Assembly (NCBI GenBank): GCA_051362555.1
Contig: CM120640.1
Location: 12,090,001-12,154,000, forward strand
Source: Lingula anatina
Lineage: Eukaryota > Animalia > Brachiopoda
Length of the DNA stretch: 64,000 nucleotides
Direction of reading: 5' to 3'
In this document: positions 16,052-26,089 of the stretch, in pieces
Layout: the number at the start of each line of letters is the position of its first letter
How positions within the stretch are numbered: the first letter of the stretch is position 1
The notes under the pieces: generated by a model
Databases searched by the model: none
The model's input: the letters and a program-made list of their open reading frames with translations, nothing else
What the model was told of the DNA's origin: nothing
Made by a program: the position numbers and the translations under genes

Positions 16052-16601
16052 CGAGGGCGAGTCAATAAATAACCAGCCTAACCTATTTCGGGTTGAGATC
16101 TACTTCTTTTTCAATATGATTTCCCTCCAGGGCAATGCACTTGGACCAACAGGGTTCAAGTGCAATCAGCCCAGAAGTGAAGAAGTCGGGGTCCTTTCCA
16201 TTGAACCACTCCTCAACTGCGGCCACGACTTGGCTGACAAGACCTGGCTTCATCTTCTAAAGATGTTCTACCGCGTTTAAACTCCCCAACCCAGAATTTT
16301 ACTTGCGCATAAGATGGTGCAGAAGACCCATACACATCAACTAACTCGGCATGTATGTCCTTACCAGTTTTACCTTTTAAATGCAAGTACCGAATTCCAG
16401 CACGGTACTCCATTTTTGATGAAAAGCTTGCTTTTACATCACTAGCCATGTTTGACATTCAATATCTGACAAACAAATGACCATATTCATATGTAGTTTT
16501 GTACCCAGGTACAATACATGTATTGAAACAATGCGTGAAAATCGTGGATGTCTCGGTTGATTGGAGATGTGTTAGGCTGGTTATATATTGGCTCACCCTC
16601 T
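16052..16601 (-). mobile_element. Internally deleted mariner (Tc1/mariner) transposon, 550 bp
   Basis: ~31-bp TIRs (cgagggcgagtcaataaataaccagcctaac / gttaggctggttatatattggctcaccctct) flanked by TA at 16050 and 16602. Encodes the transposase N-terminal HTH (EYRAGIRYLHLKGK...VKFWVGEFKRGRTSLEDEARS) joined out of frame to the C-terminus (VVAAVEEWFNGKDPDFFTSGLIALEPCWSKCIALEGNHIEK). The catalytic DDD core is absent. Confidence 0.93.
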
Positions 16602-17072
16602 TATATTTTCCAAGTTTTAGTACCTTGCATGTACATAAGGCATCTCACAAACCAAGGTCAATGTCTATCACAGGTTCTATGAGGTATAGGTCTTTGGCAT
16701 GTCTAAACTAAGCCAAGTAAATCTTTCTACTCTGCTATATTTACTATTCGAATTATATTTTGCATAAAAAATACAATTAACGCTTCAATGTCCAAATCTG
16801 GTCAAGTTATCCCAATTCTGGGATTTAAATGTTTTCTCAATAATTAAATTTACCAGACAAAGTTAACTCAAAAAGACACTTGTGTATCTTTAATATAAGG
16901 CCAGCACCACCCAAGAGTATATTTTTGAATGCGACAAAATTTACTTTAAAATTCTCTATCCTTGTTTCTTGGAAAGGTAAATGAAGTCCTTATTTTCTCT
17001 TGTCATTTACTTATCCATCTTTCGTAAAGATGCTCATTTGGGCTCCATCACAGATCATGTTTTTCTGGCATA

Positions 17073-20000
17073 TTATTTCTCAAAGTAAGTCATAACTTGA
17101 GTATGCAGCCCAAACTGAAACAAAGACATCACAGGTAAGTAGATAGCATCTTTTGACACTTAAACTACAAGTACTTGTTTAGTACAAATTTCTACACATT
17201 TTCATAAAATTCCCAATTATGAACAGAGTATTTAAATCCGGTTACAAGGAATGTCATGTAACTGAATGGTAAGAGAAAATGCTTACTATTTTGTCATTAA
17301 ATTTAAAGAGAGATAAATACAACCTCGGTGTTTTATCTGGGGATGTGGTCACTTCAGACTTACAAATGTACCACAAACGGTGTGATATCAATACAGCTTT
17401 CATTCATTTCTTTTCCTCAATATATGAAAATGTACAGACCCAACACCATTAATGCAGTTTTACCTTCTAAAAGCCTAACCCCTTCTTCCAAGAATGCTTT
17501 TGGCTCATCCACATTAATTTTAGCACTTTATTCTAATGTAATCATACCTTGAATACCACTGCAAGTAACACTCCCAAAATAAGAAATGGAATGAAAGGAG
17601 GACCACTTGATTTCTTCCCTTTACCACCAATAACCCAATTGATAAAATTCTTTTTTCTCTCAGTGTAGGGAGGATATCGCAGCCTGTAAGCAAAGCATGT
17701 TATGTTAAATGTAAAGGGGGTAAGTTGTCAACATGTGTTCAGCAGCACACAAATGTTTGTTCCAAGTTCGATCTAACGTGTCATCCTATAGGTATTTCGG
17801 ATTATGAAATTCTTTGTACAAAGACAATTGTAAATGAAATTTCAAATTTCATGTACAACCCTGTGATAACTAGTACCTGAAGTGACCACCATGGGAAAGA
17901 GGAAATGGGCAAGTAAAAAACAATGAATTGGGAAAACTCATCATATTTAACCTGATGGCATGTGTTAGTATTACAGGATATTTTTGTATATACCTTCAAA
18001 ACAAGGAATATGCCCAACTTGGACCTCTGTTCACTGCCCACTGGGCATATTTTAAGTGTCCTTCACGGTATGGTGGATACCTCAGACTAGTATGAAGGGG
18101 AGAAAAGAGTTCGGTATTTCAAACTATTTCTAAAATAGTGACCCTTGAACATAACTGCTTTTAATATCAATTGATGGATATAAGAAGATATCAAACTTTA
18201 GTGTATCAAAGACAATTTTATTAGAGGAAATGTCTATGATAACATCTTAAAATCCACTGAACAAAATGACTATTCTATACATATATAATTCCTGTTCTAT
18301 TCAAAGATGACAAGTAAAATTCACATTCCTTAAATATTTTCCCATTGTTTAAGTATTATGAGCCATATAACCCTTACAAGGAACGCTTACCACTTATACA
18401 TTTCTTACTACTTACCCATTTACAGATTCCATATTCAGCGCCTTCATGAGGCATGAGCGTCTGTGAGAGAAGGTCTCAAATGAATGTTTTCCATGGTAAC
18501 CACCCATACCACTGTGACCAACACCACCAAATGGCAGAGTATTTAGTCCAAATTGAACCATGACATCATTGATACAGGCACTGCCACTGCTTGTGCAATC
18601 CAGGATTCGTTTGGCAAGTTTCTTATCATGAGAGAAGACATACAGCGCAAGGGGCTTTTCCCTGAAAGATAAGTAAAAAGTTGAAGATCATACAATAGTT
18701 AAATGTATTGTCGCAGTAAGAAAAAATATGGTCCAGTCATTTTTACAAAAATAATCTTGATTTCTGTCAAAAGCATTTGGGTCAAAACATAAAACAGTTA
18801 GGCAAATTTAGTATTCTAATTGCAAAAAAATCATAACTTTCTTTAGGAAACCTCTTTTACCTGAAACAGGTTACTATTTAAGGTGAAAATATTTGAAAAA
18901 ATATTCTTAATTATCCTTACCCCTCATTAATCATTTCCAAAGCCTCCTCAACACCATTAACTGTTATAATAGGTAGGATTGGACCAAATATCTAGAAAGT
19001 TTTAGTAAACTATTTACTTTCTACATCTTTATGTCAAGCAAAACTGAAACAGTGCTTGGAAATCAGAAGAGGAATCCCACATAAGCATTCCATTTAGCAA
19101 CCTCAACACTAAAAATACTTTTTCCTAGTTATATTCTTTGAGTATCACCACTGTCTGAGTGTAATACAGGATACTTCTAAAGCTTTATCTGTTATTCATC
19201 AAAATATTTCATCAAACATAATGATTATATCTTTAATAAAAAAATAGCCATCAAGGTCTTATTGAAGACCACTATATTTTAGACAACTATATTTTATGCT
19301 ACTATAGCTCACCTCCTCCTGCATGACAGCATCACCAGGTTTTACATCTACAAGTACCGTAGGTTCAATGAACAAATCCTGTTCATCAGTGGCTCCACCT
19401 AATGCAATTTGAGCCCCATTCAACATCTTCTTCAGGCGACTTTCAAAAGGGGGAAAAACAAAATTTTCAATTGAAATGCAGTTTCCTCTGGTCATCACCC
19501 ATTTTTCAAGAAGGCAAACATTCATTCATGCATTTGAGTTCTAATAAATGATATATGGTAGTTTATGGGCCAGTATTGCTCGTGCATTAAAAATTACTCA
19601 TTGATAAAGGTCTAAGACACAAATAGGCAAGCATCCCCTTCCCAGTTCATTTGTATACATACATTAGCTTCTATTATTATCTGAACCTAACCACTGTCAA
19701 AAATGTAACATTTCACAAATTTAAAGTATGAAAAAATTATCTTACTGAAAATGTCTGATATTCACAATCCTACAATAGTAGTCAGACTGCTTTGGGTTCT
19801 TTTCTTCAAAAAACTGCTGAATTGCTCTCTTCATGCTGTCAAGAAAGCGTGCCTAAAATATGATCATAAAAAAATCAATCAGAACATTTGCAGATCATGT
19901 TCTCATGATTTATGAAAAATGCACATCCAGTTCACACTGCGTAAAAAAGTTATTTCAAGAGAAATAGATGCACAGCTATCAATGAAATGATGCAAAACTA

Positions 20001-23000
20001 TTCCCAGTTGATAACACATTTTTAAGTACAGAATTCTAAAATGTGAAATACTTGCATACAGAATCACCCCATTTCATTCTCACAAAACAAAAGGGTACAA
20101 AGGTGCATCTTGAGTTAACACAGTGTAAAAATAATCATGTAAAATTTTAGCAAAAATTTGGATCATTACATTGTATGTAATTCAATTTCTTAGGTTTATT
20201 TTTAAATAGTCCAGTACGTATACTACAATCAATAAATCAAGACAAACCTGAACCTCCTCCGTACAAAGAATGTAGTCTGGGGCAATACATGATTGCCCTG
20301 CATTGACAAACTTCCCCCAGAGAATTCTCTTTGCTGCTACATCAAAATCACAGTTGCTGTCAATATACACAGGACTGAAAATTGAACAAAAGAAAAGTTG
20401 ACTGCACTATCAAATGTAGCACATGGATGGTATTACGTTTTCAAGAGTTCAACTACTAAATGACTGATCTCTATATTTATTTCTCAGGCGGAGAGACCTA
20501 GAGTTTCCTAAGACAGCATGGACAATCCACATATTGGTGCGACTGACCTAACTTTATCTGATGACAATACAAACTGTTCTCTATATAAAATATACATGAG
20601 ATTAAGTGCAATTTAAGAGTGATTCTTATAGAAAGAGATACTGAAGCCAATTTAACTCAATCTTAAAAGACAATTATTAGAAGCTTTGAACGCAATTAAA
20701 TTGAGACTGATTTTAACTTTAACTAGGGGATGAAGCCACAAATGAAATTACAACTGAAAACATCCTTTAAAACTTCATTACAGGTTTTTCTAATGAAAAA
20801 AATACATTAATTTACAGATTTAGGCAATATTGTTACAGCTGATTCATCTAACCAATATTTACCAAATGGTGACATAATATGATTTAAAATATAAAGTTTC
20901 TAAAATGTAATGTGGCCATGAAATAAACACTATGACATCACTCTGGTGTGGACACCCAATGCACGAGGAAAAACGGAAAAAAGGGCATATGGACCTGAAG
21001 TGCTTCCAAGACAATAAATTTCCCTTTCATAAATACTTTGACCAGAACCACAGGAAAAAAGAGGATCAGAGAGCCAGGGGCTGCCTCATTAGAGTACACC
21101 AGCTGAGAGCAGTTGATTAAAAGAGGGTGAATACTGCACCAAGGATTTTTAGCTGTAAAATTAGTTGTATTAAAAGAAAATGCCCAGAAAAATTAATATA
21201 TTTAAACATAAAGAATGAATAGCTGTCTTGCTTACATTTGTATGAAAATGCTCATACCAACCCTTAAAAGTAATGCAGTTCAGTAAGGTGCAGAAAAAAA
21301 TCATTTTGTCCTCATGAAGTTGGAGAAAGAACAGCATCCTTAATCAATGCCAAGAGAATAGTGTAGAGCAAAAACTATGAATAACTCTGAAACTGGAACT
21401 TACGTTAGCAACTGACCAACGTAGCAGTCTCAATCTGAAACCTTTCACTAGGTAATGGCATGGATGGACTAGTGAAAGGTCTTGTGCTGGATAACTGGAT
21501 GACTAAAAACATTCACTTGTTATAGTTTTGAATGTTTAAGACCTCTGCTGCAATGCGCTTGCACTGGCTAGGTTAGTACTTATTTCATCTTGATCAGGTG
21601 AACTCAAAATGAGACTGACCATAATAAATAATTACATGCAGCATTGGTAGTAAAAAGTAGTGGTTACTTCATAATTCCCAACTTGACCTTGAGATATATG
21701 ATATACCTTTTCCCTCCAAGTTCTAGTGTAACTGGTGTAAGGTTTTCTGCTGCAGCTTTCATCATGATCTTGCCAACCATTGTGTTCCCAGTGTAAAAGA
21801 TGTAGTCAAACCTCTCCTTCAAAAGTGAAGTTATCTCTGGTACTCCCCCTGTCACTACTTTTATGCAGTCCTGAACAAAGAAATAGATTTATAATATATA
21901 ATTGCCATTTCATGAAAAATAACAATATAAGTTAATTTTAAATAAATCTAAATATATTCTAAATTTTATGACATATAAACATAGAGATGAAAGTTTAGAA
22001 TATCAACACTCCTATACTCATATGTATTAGGGCTTTTGTATTTCAAAACTATGTGATGTAAGCTTGCCTAATTTAAGCAATATTATATAGCATTCAAATA
22101 CAGATAAGTACATCTTGAAAATGTTGCCACTGTTGTATATTTATTTTAAAAAACAATATCTGTATTCAAACATTGGAAAAACAAATGCAACTTTCTTCAA
22201 ATATATTAGTTGGACTACATACCGCCTACAACTTATTTTACTCAAGGTTTTTAATATTTTAAAATATTATTATTAGTTTGATTCATAATACATTTATGAT
22301 AAAACATAGGTTCTGAACTTTATTGTGCTATATCTAAGGCAACAGCAAAATAATCATATTTTATTGTTTTAATTTCTAAATCAAAATGGAATAATGTAGC
22401 TTACGAATCTCTGTCGCTGAAATTCTCATTTCGTGTATTTTTATGTTGTCATTCTAGCTATTATAACTGCAGGTACAAGCTCCTCATTTGCCCAATTATA
22501 CAATCCACGTATTGTTGGGAAGTGATCCAACAAGGCATTACTCAGGCGTAGTTAAGAAGGTCATGTTTTATCTTAGTGCAAAGGGCCTAAACAGAGAGAG
22601 TAAACCTGGCAAACAGGTGCCAGGCATTGCAGTTTAAAACAGTTGTAGCAGAACAAATTTAAGTCCTGTTGGTGCAACGGGGTGCTGGTGCCCACCACAC
22701 TTGCTTTGATCTTCATAAATGGCAACAGAAAATTAGCACATTACGTACCTGATCTAAATATTGTGGGATGGTTCTTTCTAGAAATTCTGCTGTGGCTTCA
22801 GTCATTTCAGAAGGCTTGATAATAACACAGTTACCTGAAAAGGAAAATGTCTAGGCAAAAGTCTGAGTAAAAAATGTGCTGCCGCCTTGGTGTTACCCCT
22901 AATGTGTGCTTGTATGTAATAATTATAAATAATTTATATCAAGCAAATACATAACTTGCTGCCATATCTTGTAGTACTTTTTCCTTAACACGAACTGCTT

Positions 23001-26000
23001 TTTAGTAAGTCATTTATAATTTTTTCTTTCTAATAATCCTTGTATCAATTGTGTTAGATGCGGCAACCACATGGAGTTCAATGTGTTTTTGTTACCTGCA
23101 GCCAGAGCTCCAATGAGGGGTGCCAATGCAAGCTGCACAGGATAGTTCCATGGGCTGACAATAAGTACCACACCATATGGTTCCCTCTTGATAAAACAAT
23201 CATTTGACATGTTCAATAAATCCTTCTTCACCTAAATAAAGAATAGAGAACAAGTGTGAATTCACAAATGCCCTTGCTGGAGGAGATTCACCCAAAACCT
23301 AATATGTGTGAAAACTTTGAAAGACTGTAACATCTTCACTTCAAAATGTCTTGTTCTGCCAGTACATCACTTACCTTCTCTGGTTTTACCCAGCTGTCTA
23401 GGTTATTCAGTGCATAGTATCCCTCATTCTTTGTCAGGGTAACTTCATTCAGAATTGCTTCAAATTCAGACTGAAACGAAGAGAAAATAATAATTACATT
23501 GCCTTTTAAAGTAATAGTTATGTGTACATTTTCAAGCTAAATTTCAACATCATCATTAAAGTTATCACTGTTATTCTAGATTTTTTTTAGGCTATAATCC
23601 TTGAACAGCATATTGTAAGACAACATTGTATCACATAAATAAAAAAATACAAATCAAGAGAAATCCAGAAAATTTTTTAAACTGATATTACTCTATGAAT
23701 GTTTAAGTAATAACTAATTCACTTACCTTGCGCATATCTTTTTTGACAACCTGACAAATTTCATCTTTCTTATCTTCAATGAGTTGAATTACATTTTGTA
23801 TCTGTTTCCGTCGCCATTCAACAGATTTTGTTTTTCCGGAATTAAATGTTTTTCTCACACTTGCAACAAGCTGTAAATGAATAACTGAATGACATAAGTT
23901 TTATCTCACTAAAAAACAATGCAACTACTAGTGCAGTCAAAAGCTTTCCTAGCTATGAACAAACTAGCAAAATATGAAAAGACACTAAGTTATAACAGTT
24001 TATATGCAAGCAATGAGCCTGTAAAACAGAGATTTCATACATGTAACAGGCTCAGCAAATTACCAATCAATATCAATTACGGCATTGTCGATGTCTTCCT
24101 ACTGATACTACAGCTTACTTCTGTAAGCTAAAATTATAAAGATATTCACAGTTAAAGATATATATGAAGTAAGTACAGATTCCCTATAAGACACATAAAC
24201 CACTACTATCAGTATCTTACACAACTCAAATTAAGTCCACGTGCCAAAAAAATAAATCAAATTAATCTTTCAATCAATAAAATTAAAAAAATTAATACTG
24301 CACCCTCCTCAAATTTCTGGTTGTAAAGGGATAACAACTCTTCATTTTGGAGGGAAAGAGCCATAAAATGAATATTCCTGGAAGAAAAGCCCATCTTCCC
24401 ATATTTTCCAAAGGCTGTGGAATCCAACATTCAAAGTTCAAAGTTATTTGCTTTTTTTTTTTTGTATTTTTTTGTAATAATCTCTTAAGATTTCAGGATA
24501 AGTGCTATGACCGCCGCTTTATTGGTGAAATGGATTTTTTCACATTTCTGTGTATTGTTTACAATGTATTTATTGTAGAATTTTGAATCTAATATGAAGA
24601 GTTGTCTGCCAATGACAATGTATGGCATATTACTTCTGTGTACACAATAGCATAATTATTCAAATGAGAGTTGGTGAAATGACCAAGGATAATATATGGC
24701 ACAAAAAGATAGCAGAAAATATGTTCAAATATCACTATGAGAAATATAAAATGATACCCTTGATATTTCTTTAAGTTATACTTTTTTAAACTATATGGTG
24801 GCATTTGGATGCATTTTTAGTGACAAAGACGTGTCAACTCAGTTCAAATGCATCTTTATATTATCAAGCTAAATAATATGAATACATGGAATATCAATGA
24901 TCTTCACAACATTAGTACACGTGACATGGATAATGTCCTAGTTTTTGACCTCAAATTCAATAAATGTAAACAAACTAAATAATGGACTCAGCTTTCAATT
25001 TGCAGTCACTCTTAGCTGCATCTGCCTCAGCAGTCTACCTGTATGCTGTCTATCACAGTAAATGCTCAAATTAACAAAGGCATACATTGATATGACACAA
25101 CAATTATGCAGTTCACCAAAGCATTTAAATCGAACAACAGTGTTATCTTTATAATAACAAGCTAAATGATATGAATAAATTTATCTATGACCTGTTGAGC
25201 CTTAGCATGCATGACAATATACTAAACATTACCTGCTGATATGATATATGGAAGACATCGTAGTTTTTTTACCTCAAATTCAATAATTCTAAACTGAGGA
25301 AATAATTGCTTTAGTTTTATATTCTCAGGCACTCTTAGCAAAGTCTGCCTCAGCAGTCTACTCAAGAGTGACATCTTTGTAATAAAAAGCTTAAGTCCTA
25401 GTTTTTGACCTCAAATTCAATAAATGTTAACAAAGTAAATATTTGCATCAGTTTTGGGTCTAACATGCAAGGTTCTTACCAGAGGTAGAGCCTCTTCTAT
25501 ACAATGGGGTAACTACCGTTTCGATCCTAGTTAGCACTTTGAAAAATAATTAAGTAATTGTATTGGTACACAAACCAATTTGACAACATTTAACTCTATT
25601 TATTACAGCTATGCAGTAGTTTTAGCACTTACGCATGTCACTTGAAAGTGATGCCACATACAGGCAAAACAATTTCTAACAAAGAGTGCTATGAGGCCTT
25701 ACCTTAGCATATGAAAGGCAGATAACTGAGGCAAAATAAATAAGAGATCATATTAACAAAAGCTTGTAACTTATATGCTTAATTGCCTAAAGAATAAGTT
25801 TAAAATTGTTCTATTTGACAAGATTTTATATCTGAACTCACTGACATATTAATATAAAACTGTCATTCTATTCTTCAACTTTCTGGTCAGTTTACTGTAA
25901 ACTGTGGACTTTCGACCCTGTCCCTCTAGCTGAGACTGCCTGCGCGGTCTACCGGTATGCTGTCTGGCACAGCAAATGCTCAAATTAACAAAGACATGTA

Positions 26001-26089
26001 CTGATATGACACAACAGTTTATGCAGTTCACCAAAAACATTAGAATCAAAAAACAGTGTCATTACCGTCGAGTAAGCAGGAGTTGCCAT
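17073..26089 (-). CDS. ALDH3A2: Aldehyde dehydrogenase family 3 (fatty aldehyde dehydrogenase, ALDH3A2-like); membrane-anchored isoform 501 aa
   Basis: Exons 26089-26066, 23870-23727, 23470-23375, 23231-23096, 22834-22749, 21870-21707, 20374-20248, 19852-19746, 19439-19313, 18991-18921, 18661-18416, 17683-17548, 17114-17073 (1506 nt, in frame). Motifs [31 protein letters not shown], catalytic [41 protein letters not shown], hydrophobic tail [16 protein letters not shown]. The symbol reflects family and architecture; one-to-one orthology is not shown. Confidence 0.92.
17996..18086 (-). CDS. Alternative duplicated C-terminal exon of ALDH3 (anchor-less isoform, 472 aa)
   Basis: Strong acceptor cttttctccccttcatactAG (18088-18087), same phase as exon 17683-17548. 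Encodes [29 protein letters not shown]-stop. Donor AG|GTATAT lies 2 nt after the stop. Confidence 0.8.
24328..24610. mobile_element. MITE, copy 1 (ALDH3 intron 1)
   Basis: Inverted ends acaactcttcat / atgaagagttgt. Internal sequence (caatgtatttatt...ttttgaatct.atatgaagagttgtc) is shared with 44041-44294. Confidence 0.6.
24935..26060. repeat. Degenerate local duplications in ALDH3 intron 1
   Basis: tagtttttgacctcaaattcaataa occurs three times (~24940, ~25260, ~25400). A ~110-bp block aaatgctcaaattaacaaag...atgcagttcaccaaa occurs at ~25040-25145 and ~25955-26060. Confidence 0.7.

What the first reader, a model, noticed from the sequence alone, without database searches (positions are those of the whole stretch)
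17073..18416. ALDH3 has tandem-duplicated, apparently mutually exclusive C-terminal exons: soluble versus membrane-anchored enzyme from one gene
Seen: after the exon ending ...MESVNG (18416) there are two phase-2 exons that both start LRYPPY. Exon A (18086-17994) gives [33 protein letters not shown] with no hydrophobic helix. Exon B (17683-17548) gives [45 protein letters not shown] and splices in frame to a last exon [17 protein letters not shown] (17114-17073). Both exons end in homologous AAG|GTAT donors. A's stop lies 2 nt before its donor, so A joined to the last exon should escape NMD. Known: vertebrates split these forms between paralogs (cytosolic ALDH3A1, tail-anchored ALDH3A2). Inference: here exon choice sets subcellular location. 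The ORF track misses this entirely.
Basis: partly seen in the sequence, partly recalled or inferred. Interest (0 to 1): 0.85.

Follow-up and report, generated by a model that had tools for sequence, protein, structure and literature searches.

The report
Duplicated exon swaps enzyme's membrane anchor
In the brachiopod Lingula, one aldehyde-detoxifying enzyme gene carries two copies of its tail exon, and RNA reads show the extra, stop-carrying copy spliced in ahead of the other in sample-dependent amounts, which likely yields an enzyme without its membrane anchor; bivalve and feather-star genes are annotated with similar swappable tails.

Summary
The exons are real and both are used. The window is the Lingula anatina ALDH3 gene; RefSeq already predicts both proteins (501 aa exon B, 472 aa exon A). 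Exon A is covered in 6 of 7 RNA runs laid, from none (X7) to about half or more of junction reads (X2, X5).

The exons are not strictly mutually exclusive. The only listed 3' partner of A is exon B (3 reads); A joined to the last exon was never listed.

A encodes a second gatekeeper helix without the transmembrane helix, so it resembles an unprenylated ALDH3B more than ALDH3A1. Source-annotated isoforms show anchored and unanchored tails from one gene in 14 bivalves and 2 crinoids; clams and crinoids have a CaaX tail. Location and protein are untested. No paper describing this was found in 10 searches, and the scan's earlier notes held nothing related.

The parts
26066..26089 (-). First coding exon (ATG at 26089, 8 codons)
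   Evidence: tblastn with the RefSeq protein, GT donor, open frame; not covered by the read lays
18921..23870 (-). Nine constitutive coding exons of the ALDH3 body: 23870-23727, 23470-23375, 23231-23096, 22834-22749, 21870-21707, 20374-20248, 19852-19746, 19439-19313, 18991-18921
   Evidence: joint 18920/18660 and the loose end into the 19313 exon seen in reads
18416..18661 (-). Last constitutive body exon, phase-2 donor at 18416 that joins either A or B
   Evidence: joints; 100% match to RefSeq XP_013406965.1
17994..18086 (-). Exon A: 93-nt cassette exon, duplicate of exon B; encodes residues 444-472 (RYPP linker, predicted gatekeeper helix 451-461, short aromatic end) and the stop TGA at 17998-17996
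   Evidence: upstream->A joint in X1 1, X2 8, X3 2, X5 4, X9 3 reads, X4 0, X7 0; A->B in 3 reads of X9; helix
17548..17683 (-). Exon B: 136 nt; RYPP linker, gatekeeper segment, basic linker and transmembrane helix; predicted to be 3' UTR when A is included
   Evidence: upstream->B joint X1 10, X4 11, X5 0, X7 9; B->last X1 6, X4 7, X5 4, X7 19; hydropathy
16300..17114 (-). Last exon: 13 codons after the TM helix plus stop (17114-17073), then a 3' UTR that runs at least to 16300 (end not mapped)
   Evidence: read depth down to 16300 in all four runs

Best explanation
Exon A is a tandem duplicate of the gatekeeper-plus-anchor exon B that is spliced in as a stop-carrying cassette ahead of B, and its inclusion likely switches this ALDH3 from a tail-anchored enzyme to one with a different gatekeeper helix and no transmembrane helix. 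Skipping A gives the 501-aa form, predicted to be a tail-anchored FALDH-like enzyme. Including A ends translation at residue 472 and turns B and the last exon into 3' UTR. The 472-aa form is predicted to be cytosolic or only loosely bound to membranes through its gatekeeper helix and aromatic end, and may differ in aldehyde preference. Shown: both exons, their homology, the joints upstream->A, upstream->B, A->B and B->last, and unequal inclusion between samples. Inferred: that the A message escapes decay enough to be translated, where each protein sits, that inclusion is regulated rather than genotype-dependent, and any substrate difference.
For: Use: exon A is covered in 6 of 7 runs and its acceptor joint is read in 5 of 7. 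Order: X9 has 3 reads whose loose end at 17993 is the first 30 nt of exon B, agreement 1. In X1 and X3 the letters in bin 17970-17996 fit two reads each running one base past the donor, as a G-starting exon (B) would and the T-starting last exon would not (my arithmetic). In X5, upstream->A is 4 and upstream->B is 0, yet B is covered 5-10 deep and B->last is 4. Sample dependence: X5 4:0 against X4 0:11 (Fisher p 0.0007 by reads, 0.003 by starts, 0.048 with counts halved for mates); X2 8 joints to A against 4 loose ends to B. Constraint: in the diverged lineage of study P3, exon A shows 1 listed difference in 93 nt, synonymous, while exon B shows 4 amino-acid changes among 5 listed differences. 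Structure: the AlphaFold2 model has a helix at 451-461 (pLDDT about 83) and aligns to human FALDH 4QGK over model 5-463 / chain 0-457 (Z 58.3, rmsd 1.2, 458 aligned), covering the gatekeeper helix of PMC4109017. Conservation: anchored and unanchored RYPP tails are annotated as isoforms of one gene in 10 of 20 groups and 5 of 10 (17 species).
Against: The stop is 138 nt above the last junction, so the 50-55 nt rule (recalled) predicts decay; no protein evidence was obtained. Direct A->B evidence is 3 reads in one run, of the diverged lineage; the A->B joint was not listed in any of the 4 runs. Counts are small (about 6-30% of each run read), mates overlap, tissues are unknown, and loose ends undercount B (X1: 10 joints, 4 loose ends). 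The low divergence of A is only suggestive (P about 0.06), and nucleotide conservation is also typical of poison exons (recalled). Relatives were seen only as automatic protein models, not as DNA. Only anchored tails were seen in abalone, whelk, chiton, nemertean, Owenia, brittle star and acorn worm. In C. elegans a cytosolic, anchor-less ALH-4 did not do the job in vivo (PMC8291716, passages). The model was folded with an alignment rich in B-like tails, which may favour the helix; residues 462-472 are unresolved.
Confidence: 0.7

Rival explanations
1. Exon A is a poison exon: its inclusion marks the message for nonsense-mediated decay and lowers the anchored enzyme, and little 472-aa protein is made.
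For: A->B->last puts the stop 138 nt above the last junction; inclusion varies between samples; A is very conserved at nucleotide level in the diverged lineage.
Against: A-containing message is about half or more of the junction reads in X2 and X5. A keeps RYPP, a predicted gatekeeper helix and an aromatic end of the same length and kind as the unanchored tails of 14 bivalve species; a poison exon would not need that.
Confidence: 0.16
2. One reading: A and B are mutually exclusive and A joins the last exon directly, which spares it from decay.
For: A and B are homologous tandem exons with the same entry phase. RefSeq has two transcripts for the 472-aa protein, one of which could be A->last. 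The 15 letters in X2's bin 17970-17996 can be read either way.
Against: The only listed continuation of A is B; A->last was listed in 0 of 7 runs (3-read threshold); X5 has B and B->last reads with no upstream->B joint.
Confidence: 0.07
3. Exon A is a decaying duplicate included through leaky splicing, with no function.
For: No coverage in X7 and low coverage in X1 and X4; the Lingula A tail sits on a long branch and does not group with bivalve short tails in the tail tree.
Against: Major form in two samples; no listed amino-acid change in the diverged lineage; identical protein in the window and in RefSeq, although they differ at 3 other residues; good acceptor (15 of 17 pyrimidines).
Confidence: 0.04
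4. The TGA at the end of A is read through; since A is 93 nt, A and B stay in frame and give a longer anchored protein with two gatekeeper segments.
For: A+B is in frame apart from the single TGA.
Against: The stop is followed by A, not the C-starting leaky context (recalled); bivalve short tails end at a similar place, which fits a true end; no read-through data.
Confidence: 0.03

Closest known systems
Human ALDH3A2 (FALDH) splice forms FALDH-N/ER and FALDH-V/PO (PMC3345252 and PMC5450235, passages; Ashibe 2007 itself not read)
   Same: Same family; C-terminal alternative splicing of one gene sets location.
   Different: Both vertebrate forms share the gatekeeper and transmembrane helices and differ only in the tail after them. 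Here a duplicated exon replaces the gatekeeper helix and removes the transmembrane helix.
C. elegans ALH-4 isoforms a, b, c (PMC8291716, passages)
   Same: Invertebrate ALDH3 with alternative 3' exons and organelle-specific targeting; gatekeeper and anchor both needed in vivo.
   Different: All three follow a common transmembrane helix; the anchor-less form there was engineered, not natural.
Vertebrate ALDH3B1/ALDH3B2 (PMC4109017 and PMC13314531, passages)
   Same: Gatekeeper-like helix without a transmembrane helix, about 470 aa, as in the exon A form; crinoid and clam isoforms end in CaaX.
   Different: Separate genes anchored by prenylation and palmitoylation. Lingula A has no cysteine at -4.
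Vertebrate ALDH3A1
   Same: No membrane anchor.
   Different: Lacks the gatekeeper helix altogether (PMC4109017) and arises inside the vertebrate ALDH3A2 clade; exon A keeps a predicted helix.
KRAS4A/4B (PMC9882654, abstract and passages)
   Same: Two homologous C-terminal exons in one gene that give different membrane-targeting ends.
   Different: Unrelated protein; that paper derives exon 4A from NRAS and calls the exons mutually exclusive. Here the duplicate is homologous to its neighbour and a further junction lies downstream of the stop.
RefSeq models XP_013406964.1 (X1) and XP_013406965.1 / XP_013406966.1 (X2), Lingula anatina
   Same: The same two proteins, already predicted automatically.
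   Different: Named only 'family 3 member B1 isoform X1/X2', with no reading of anchor, gatekeeper or splicing order; transcript structures could not be seen here.

Membership tests
ALDH3 (class 3 aldehyde dehydrogenase) | Aldedh domain with catalytic Cys, Glu and Asn motifs | tested here: met
   PF00171 E 5e-88; WNYP 116, ELGGK 212, GQSC 243, EEIFGP 336
ALDH3 (class 3 aldehyde dehydrogenase) | Class 3 fold and placement among ALDH3 proteins | tested here: met
   Top structural matches 1AD3, 4QGK, 4H80 at Z 58, rmsd 1.2; groups with lophotrochozoan ALDH3, support 81
ALDH3A2-like tail-anchored FALDH (exon B form) | Gatekeeper segment followed by one C-terminal transmembrane helix | tested here: met
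   Best 19-residue hydropathy 2.49; aligns with anchored relatives; B form not folded
ALDH3A2-like tail-anchored FALDH (exon B form) | ER or peroxisome location and long-chain aldehyde activity | not testable with these tools
   Needs tagging and enzyme assay
ALDH3A1-like soluble enzyme (exon A form) | No transmembrane helix | tested here: met
   Best 17-residue hydropathy -0.19
ALDH3A1-like soluble enzyme (exon A form) | No gatekeeper helix | tested here: not met
   Predicted helix 451-461 lies on the FALDH gatekeeper; ALDH3A1 chains align only to model residue 450-455
ALDH3B-like lipid-anchored enzyme (exon A form) | Gatekeeper-like helix without transmembrane helix | tested here: met
   feature from PMC4109017
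ALDH3B-like lipid-anchored enzyme (exon A form) | C-terminal CaaX | tested here: not met
   Ends YSLF, no cysteine
Mutually exclusive homologous exons | Two homologous tandem exons, each joined to the same upstream donor | tested here: met
Mutually exclusive homologous exons | Never present in the same message | tested here: not met
   A->B in 3 reads of X9; indirect support in X1, X3, X5
Mutually exclusive homologous exons | Each joins the common downstream exon | tested here: inconclusive
   B->last seen; A->last listed in 0 of 7 runs, but the threshold is 3 reads and coverage of A is 0-10 deep
Poison cassette exon (splicing coupled to NMD) | Stop more than 50-55 nt above the last junction (rule recalled) | tested here: met
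   138 nt
Poison cassette exon (splicing coupled to NMD) | Low steady-state level of the included form | tested here: inconclusive
   Low or absent in X1, X3, X4, X7, X9 but about half or more in X2 and X5, on small counts
Poison cassette exon (splicing coupled to NMD) | Stabilised when NMD is blocked | not testable with these tools
   Needs UPF1 knockdown or translation block

The most novel reading that the evidence does not exclude
The gatekeeper exon of animal ALDH3 is a swappable anchor module that has been duplicated within single invertebrate genes, more than once, to give up to three anchor types: transmembrane, CaaX, and an undescribed cysteine-free aromatic tail. One gene thereby covers what vertebrates split between ALDH3A2 and ALDH3B. 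The stop-carrying copies are spliced in ahead of the transmembrane exon and persist despite a downstream junction, which would mean junction-dependent NMD is weak or switched off for these messages in brachiopods and bivalves.
Probability: 0.35. Interest if true: 0.72.

Novelty: new variant of a known kind. Interest (0 to 1): 0.52.

Why it matters
Known ALDH3 splice switches change only the few residues after a shared membrane anchor. Here one exon choice changes the helix that caps the substrate funnel and removes the anchor. It offers natural, same-body pairs or trios of enzymes (anchored, prenylated, aromatic-tailed) to test how anchor and gatekeeper set location and aldehyde chain-length preference, the axis that matters in Sjogren-Larsson syndrome. 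It suggests how the vertebrate ALDH3A2/ALDH3B division could have come from splice forms. An abundant message with a stop 138 nt above the last junction is also a ready reporter for the NMD rule in lophotrochozoans, for which my one search found no study.

Tried and rejected
No whole genome is held for this window, and the genome tools cover prokaryotes, so orthologous DNA could not be read. The idea that the 3' end of A is a frame-shifted remnant of the TM-coding part of B was tested and not supported. The 'homologous donor' argument was rejected. A as a terminal exon running into the intron: no depth at 17881-17973; only 2 reads in X3 run on to about 17907, with no AATAAA or ATTAAA between A and B, read as unspliced RNA. 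PTS1 and CaaX at the end of A: absent. Tree of 54 tails (32 columns): 33 of 51 inner branches open; it neither shows nor excludes a single origin of the short tails, but it groups crinoid CaaX and TM copies together (100/98), so that duplication is lineage-specific or homogenised. Further duplicated exons in the Lingula gene: none found by tblastn. An A/B heterodimer prediction was not run, since it would likely pass by likeness to solved ALDH3 dimers. Ashibe 2007 is not held. Two Drosophila Aldh-III papers (PMC3098255, PMC4133159; passages) said nothing on tail isoforms in the passages shown. Earlier scan notes were all unrelated bacterial loci. No supplements were read.

Full report
Observation. 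The minus strand holds the exons exactly as described: an upstream exon 18661-18416 ending in phase 2, exon A 18086-17994 (93 nt, TGA 2 nt before its donor), exon B 17683-17548 (136 nt) and a last exon from 17114. With the ATG exon at 26089-26066 and nine further exons, the frames are open for 472 aa (A) and 501 aa (B). A and B are homologous (score 54.3 against 20.3 +/- 5.8; 0 of 1000 shuffles). The homology is in the 5' part. The 3' ends align no better than chance once the splice-consensus AAG is dropped, so the 'homologous donors' are not evidence.

Identity. The upstream exon matches a Lingula anatina protein at 100%. Its cluster holds XP_013406964.1 (501 aa, exon B tail) and XP_013406965.1 / XP_013406966.1 (472 aa, exon A tail). 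Both proteins are therefore already automatic RefSeq predictions. The window differs from them at 3 residues outside A and B. Pfam, catalytic motifs, fold and a tree of 37 bodies place the gene in ALDH3, with other lophotrochozoan genes (support 81); vertebrate ALDH3A1 and ALDH3A2 form their own clade (98) and the one ALDH3B1 included lies apart.

Use of the exons. Nine raw-read RNA runs were offered; seven were laid, about 6-30% of each. (16300-19060): upstream->B joints X1 10, X4 11, X5 0, X7 9; upstream->A X1 1, X4 0, X5 4, X7 0; B->last 6, 7, 4, 19. (17700-18500): upstream->A joints X1 1, X2 8, X3 2, X9 3; loose ends into B X1 4, X2 4, X3 10, X9 17. Loose ends undercount B (X1 gave 10 joints but 4 loose ends). 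Exon A has depth in 6 of 7 runs and none in X7. Inclusion differs between samples (X5 against X4: p 0.0007 by reads, 0.003 by starts, 0.048 with counts halved). Tissues are not known, so regulation and genotype cannot be told apart.

Splicing order. The key result is a loose end at 17993 in X9: 3 reads, agreement 1, whose 30 letters are the start of exon B. A therefore splices to B. Indirect signs agree. In X1 and X3 two reads each run one base past the A donor, which fits a next exon starting with G (B) and not T (last exon); this is my arithmetic on bin depths. In X5 every listed upstream joint goes to A, yet B and B->last are read. X2's bin is ambiguous. A->last was listed in 0 of 7 runs, and A->B was not listed in the 4 runs; both are subject to the 3-read threshold, so a minor A->last form is not excluded. 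In A+B+last the stop lies 2 nt above one junction and 138 nt above the last. Even so the A form is about half or more of the message in X2 and X5.

Constraint. Reads of study P3 are mostly 90-95% alike, a diverged lineage under the same species label. There exon A shows one listed difference (18068, synonymous; X9, about 7 reads). Neighbouring exons show 22 listed differences in 453 nt in X7 (21 further rows of that table were not shown), and exon B has 4 amino-acid changes among 5. The deficit in A is suggestive only (P about 0.06).

What the exons encode. In human FALDH, residues 445-460 after the RYPP linker form the gatekeeper helix, which caps the partner subunit's substrate funnel; its loss cut hexadecanal turnover tenfold; ALDH3A1 lacks it and ALDH3B1 has it with lipid anchors (PMC4109017, passages). 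An AlphaFold2 model of the A form (96-row alignment, mean pLDDT 92.9) has a helix at 451-461 and an unresolved end. It aligns to 4QGK over model 5-463 / chain 0-457 (Z 58.3, rmsd 1.2, 458 aligned). At that offset of 6, the Sjogren-Larsson residue K447 corresponds to Lys453 in B and His453 in A (my reading of the sequences). B continues through a basic linker into a transmembrane helix (hydropathy 2.58); A stops after a short aromatic end (-0.19), near the place where the proline before the TM helix lies in anchored forms. A has no CaaX or PTS1 and only +1 net charge after the helix, against +2 to +4 in bivalve short tails. It is predicted to be cytosolic or weakly peripheral.

Relatives. Proteins that the sources name as isoforms of one gene, diverging at or just after the same junction, show an anchored and an unanchored RYPP tail in 10 of 20 groups printed and 5 of 10. 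That is Lingula, 14 bivalves (2 scallops, 3 mussels, 6 oysters, 2 venerid clams, Dreissena) and 2 crinoids. Bivalve short tails end in aromatic clusters such as GFFSFLGF, like A. Crinoids pair TM with CaaX tails, and Mercenaria and Ruditapes have all three kinds. Only anchored tails were seen in Haliotis, Babylonia, Liolophura, Lineus, Owenia, Amphiura, Ptychodera and two Mytilus species; clusters are cut at 90% identity, so these blanks are weak. The short proteins are often encoded by 2-4 RefSeq transcripts, as expected if the stop exon is followed by variable downstream exons, but one anchored Dreissena form also has three. These are automatic models, two backed by Logan contig proteins whose tails I printed (P0217, P0367); no DNA of relatives was seen. 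The tail tree is mostly unresolved, except that crinoid CaaX and TM copies group together. One origin for brachiopod and bivalve short tails is neither shown nor excluded.

Mechanism. Skipping A gives the tail-anchored FALDH-like enzyme. Including A supplies another gatekeeper helix and a stop, leaving B as UTR, and likely gives an enzyme without an integral anchor (0.70). Rivals are a poison exon (0.16), strict mutual exclusion (0.07), a decaying duplicate (0.04) and read-through (0.03).

Known and new. C-terminal splicing that sets ALDH3 location is known for FALDH-N/V (PMC3345252, PMC5450235; passages) and C. elegans ALH-4 (PMC8291716; passages), but those forms share the TM helix. KRAS4A/4B is a parallel in another family (PMC9882654; abstract and passages). 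Ten literature searches (listings and abstract starts, with passages of the eight papers named in this report) found no description of duplicated gatekeeper exons in invertebrate ALDH3; the library omits most subscription journals and no supplements were read. Verdict: a real, used and probably functional feature; a new variant of a known kind; interest 0.52.

Noticed in passing
window 16243-16413 (-): A mariner (Mos1-type) transposase HTH_48 fragment (E 1.4e-10) lies in sense inside this gene's 3' UTR; reads of X1, X4 and X5 cover it down to 16300. X7 has 24 reads with unlike sequence before 16450, so the element may be absent in that lineage.
   Followed up: partly
window 17532 (-): AATAAA 16 nt into the intron after exon B, with an in-frame stop two codons past the donor: a possible intronic poly(A) form ending right after the TM helix. 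Not seen in reads.
   Followed up: no
proteins P0294/P0198, P0307/P0309, P0318/P0225, P0233/P0327, P0019/P0126: Relatives have equal-length isoforms that diverge internally (Mytilus at residue 91 or 122; clams, Lineus and Amphiura near 360; Owenia at 218), suggesting other duplicated alternative exons in ALDH3. None was found in the Lingula window.
   Followed up: partly
proteins P0312, P0335: Mercenaria and Dreissena have an isoform ending in SKL right after the TM helix, a PTS1-like end on a tail-anchored form.
   Followed up: no
proteins P0132, P0371, P0337, P0368: Octopus has TM-less (471 aa) and TM (520 aa) ALDH3 proteins with adjacent accession numbers but in different clusters: probably tandem genes doing what exon choice does in bivalves.
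   Followed up: no
window 17073-17114 and RefSeq X1: The window ends the B form with YFEK and RefSeq with CFEK: a Tyr/Cys difference at position -4, unlikely to be a working CaaX.
   Followed up: no
runs X7 and X9 (study P3): Reads under the same species label are mostly 90-95% alike to the window against 95-100% for studies P1 and P2, consistent with a distinct lineage.
   Followed up: partly
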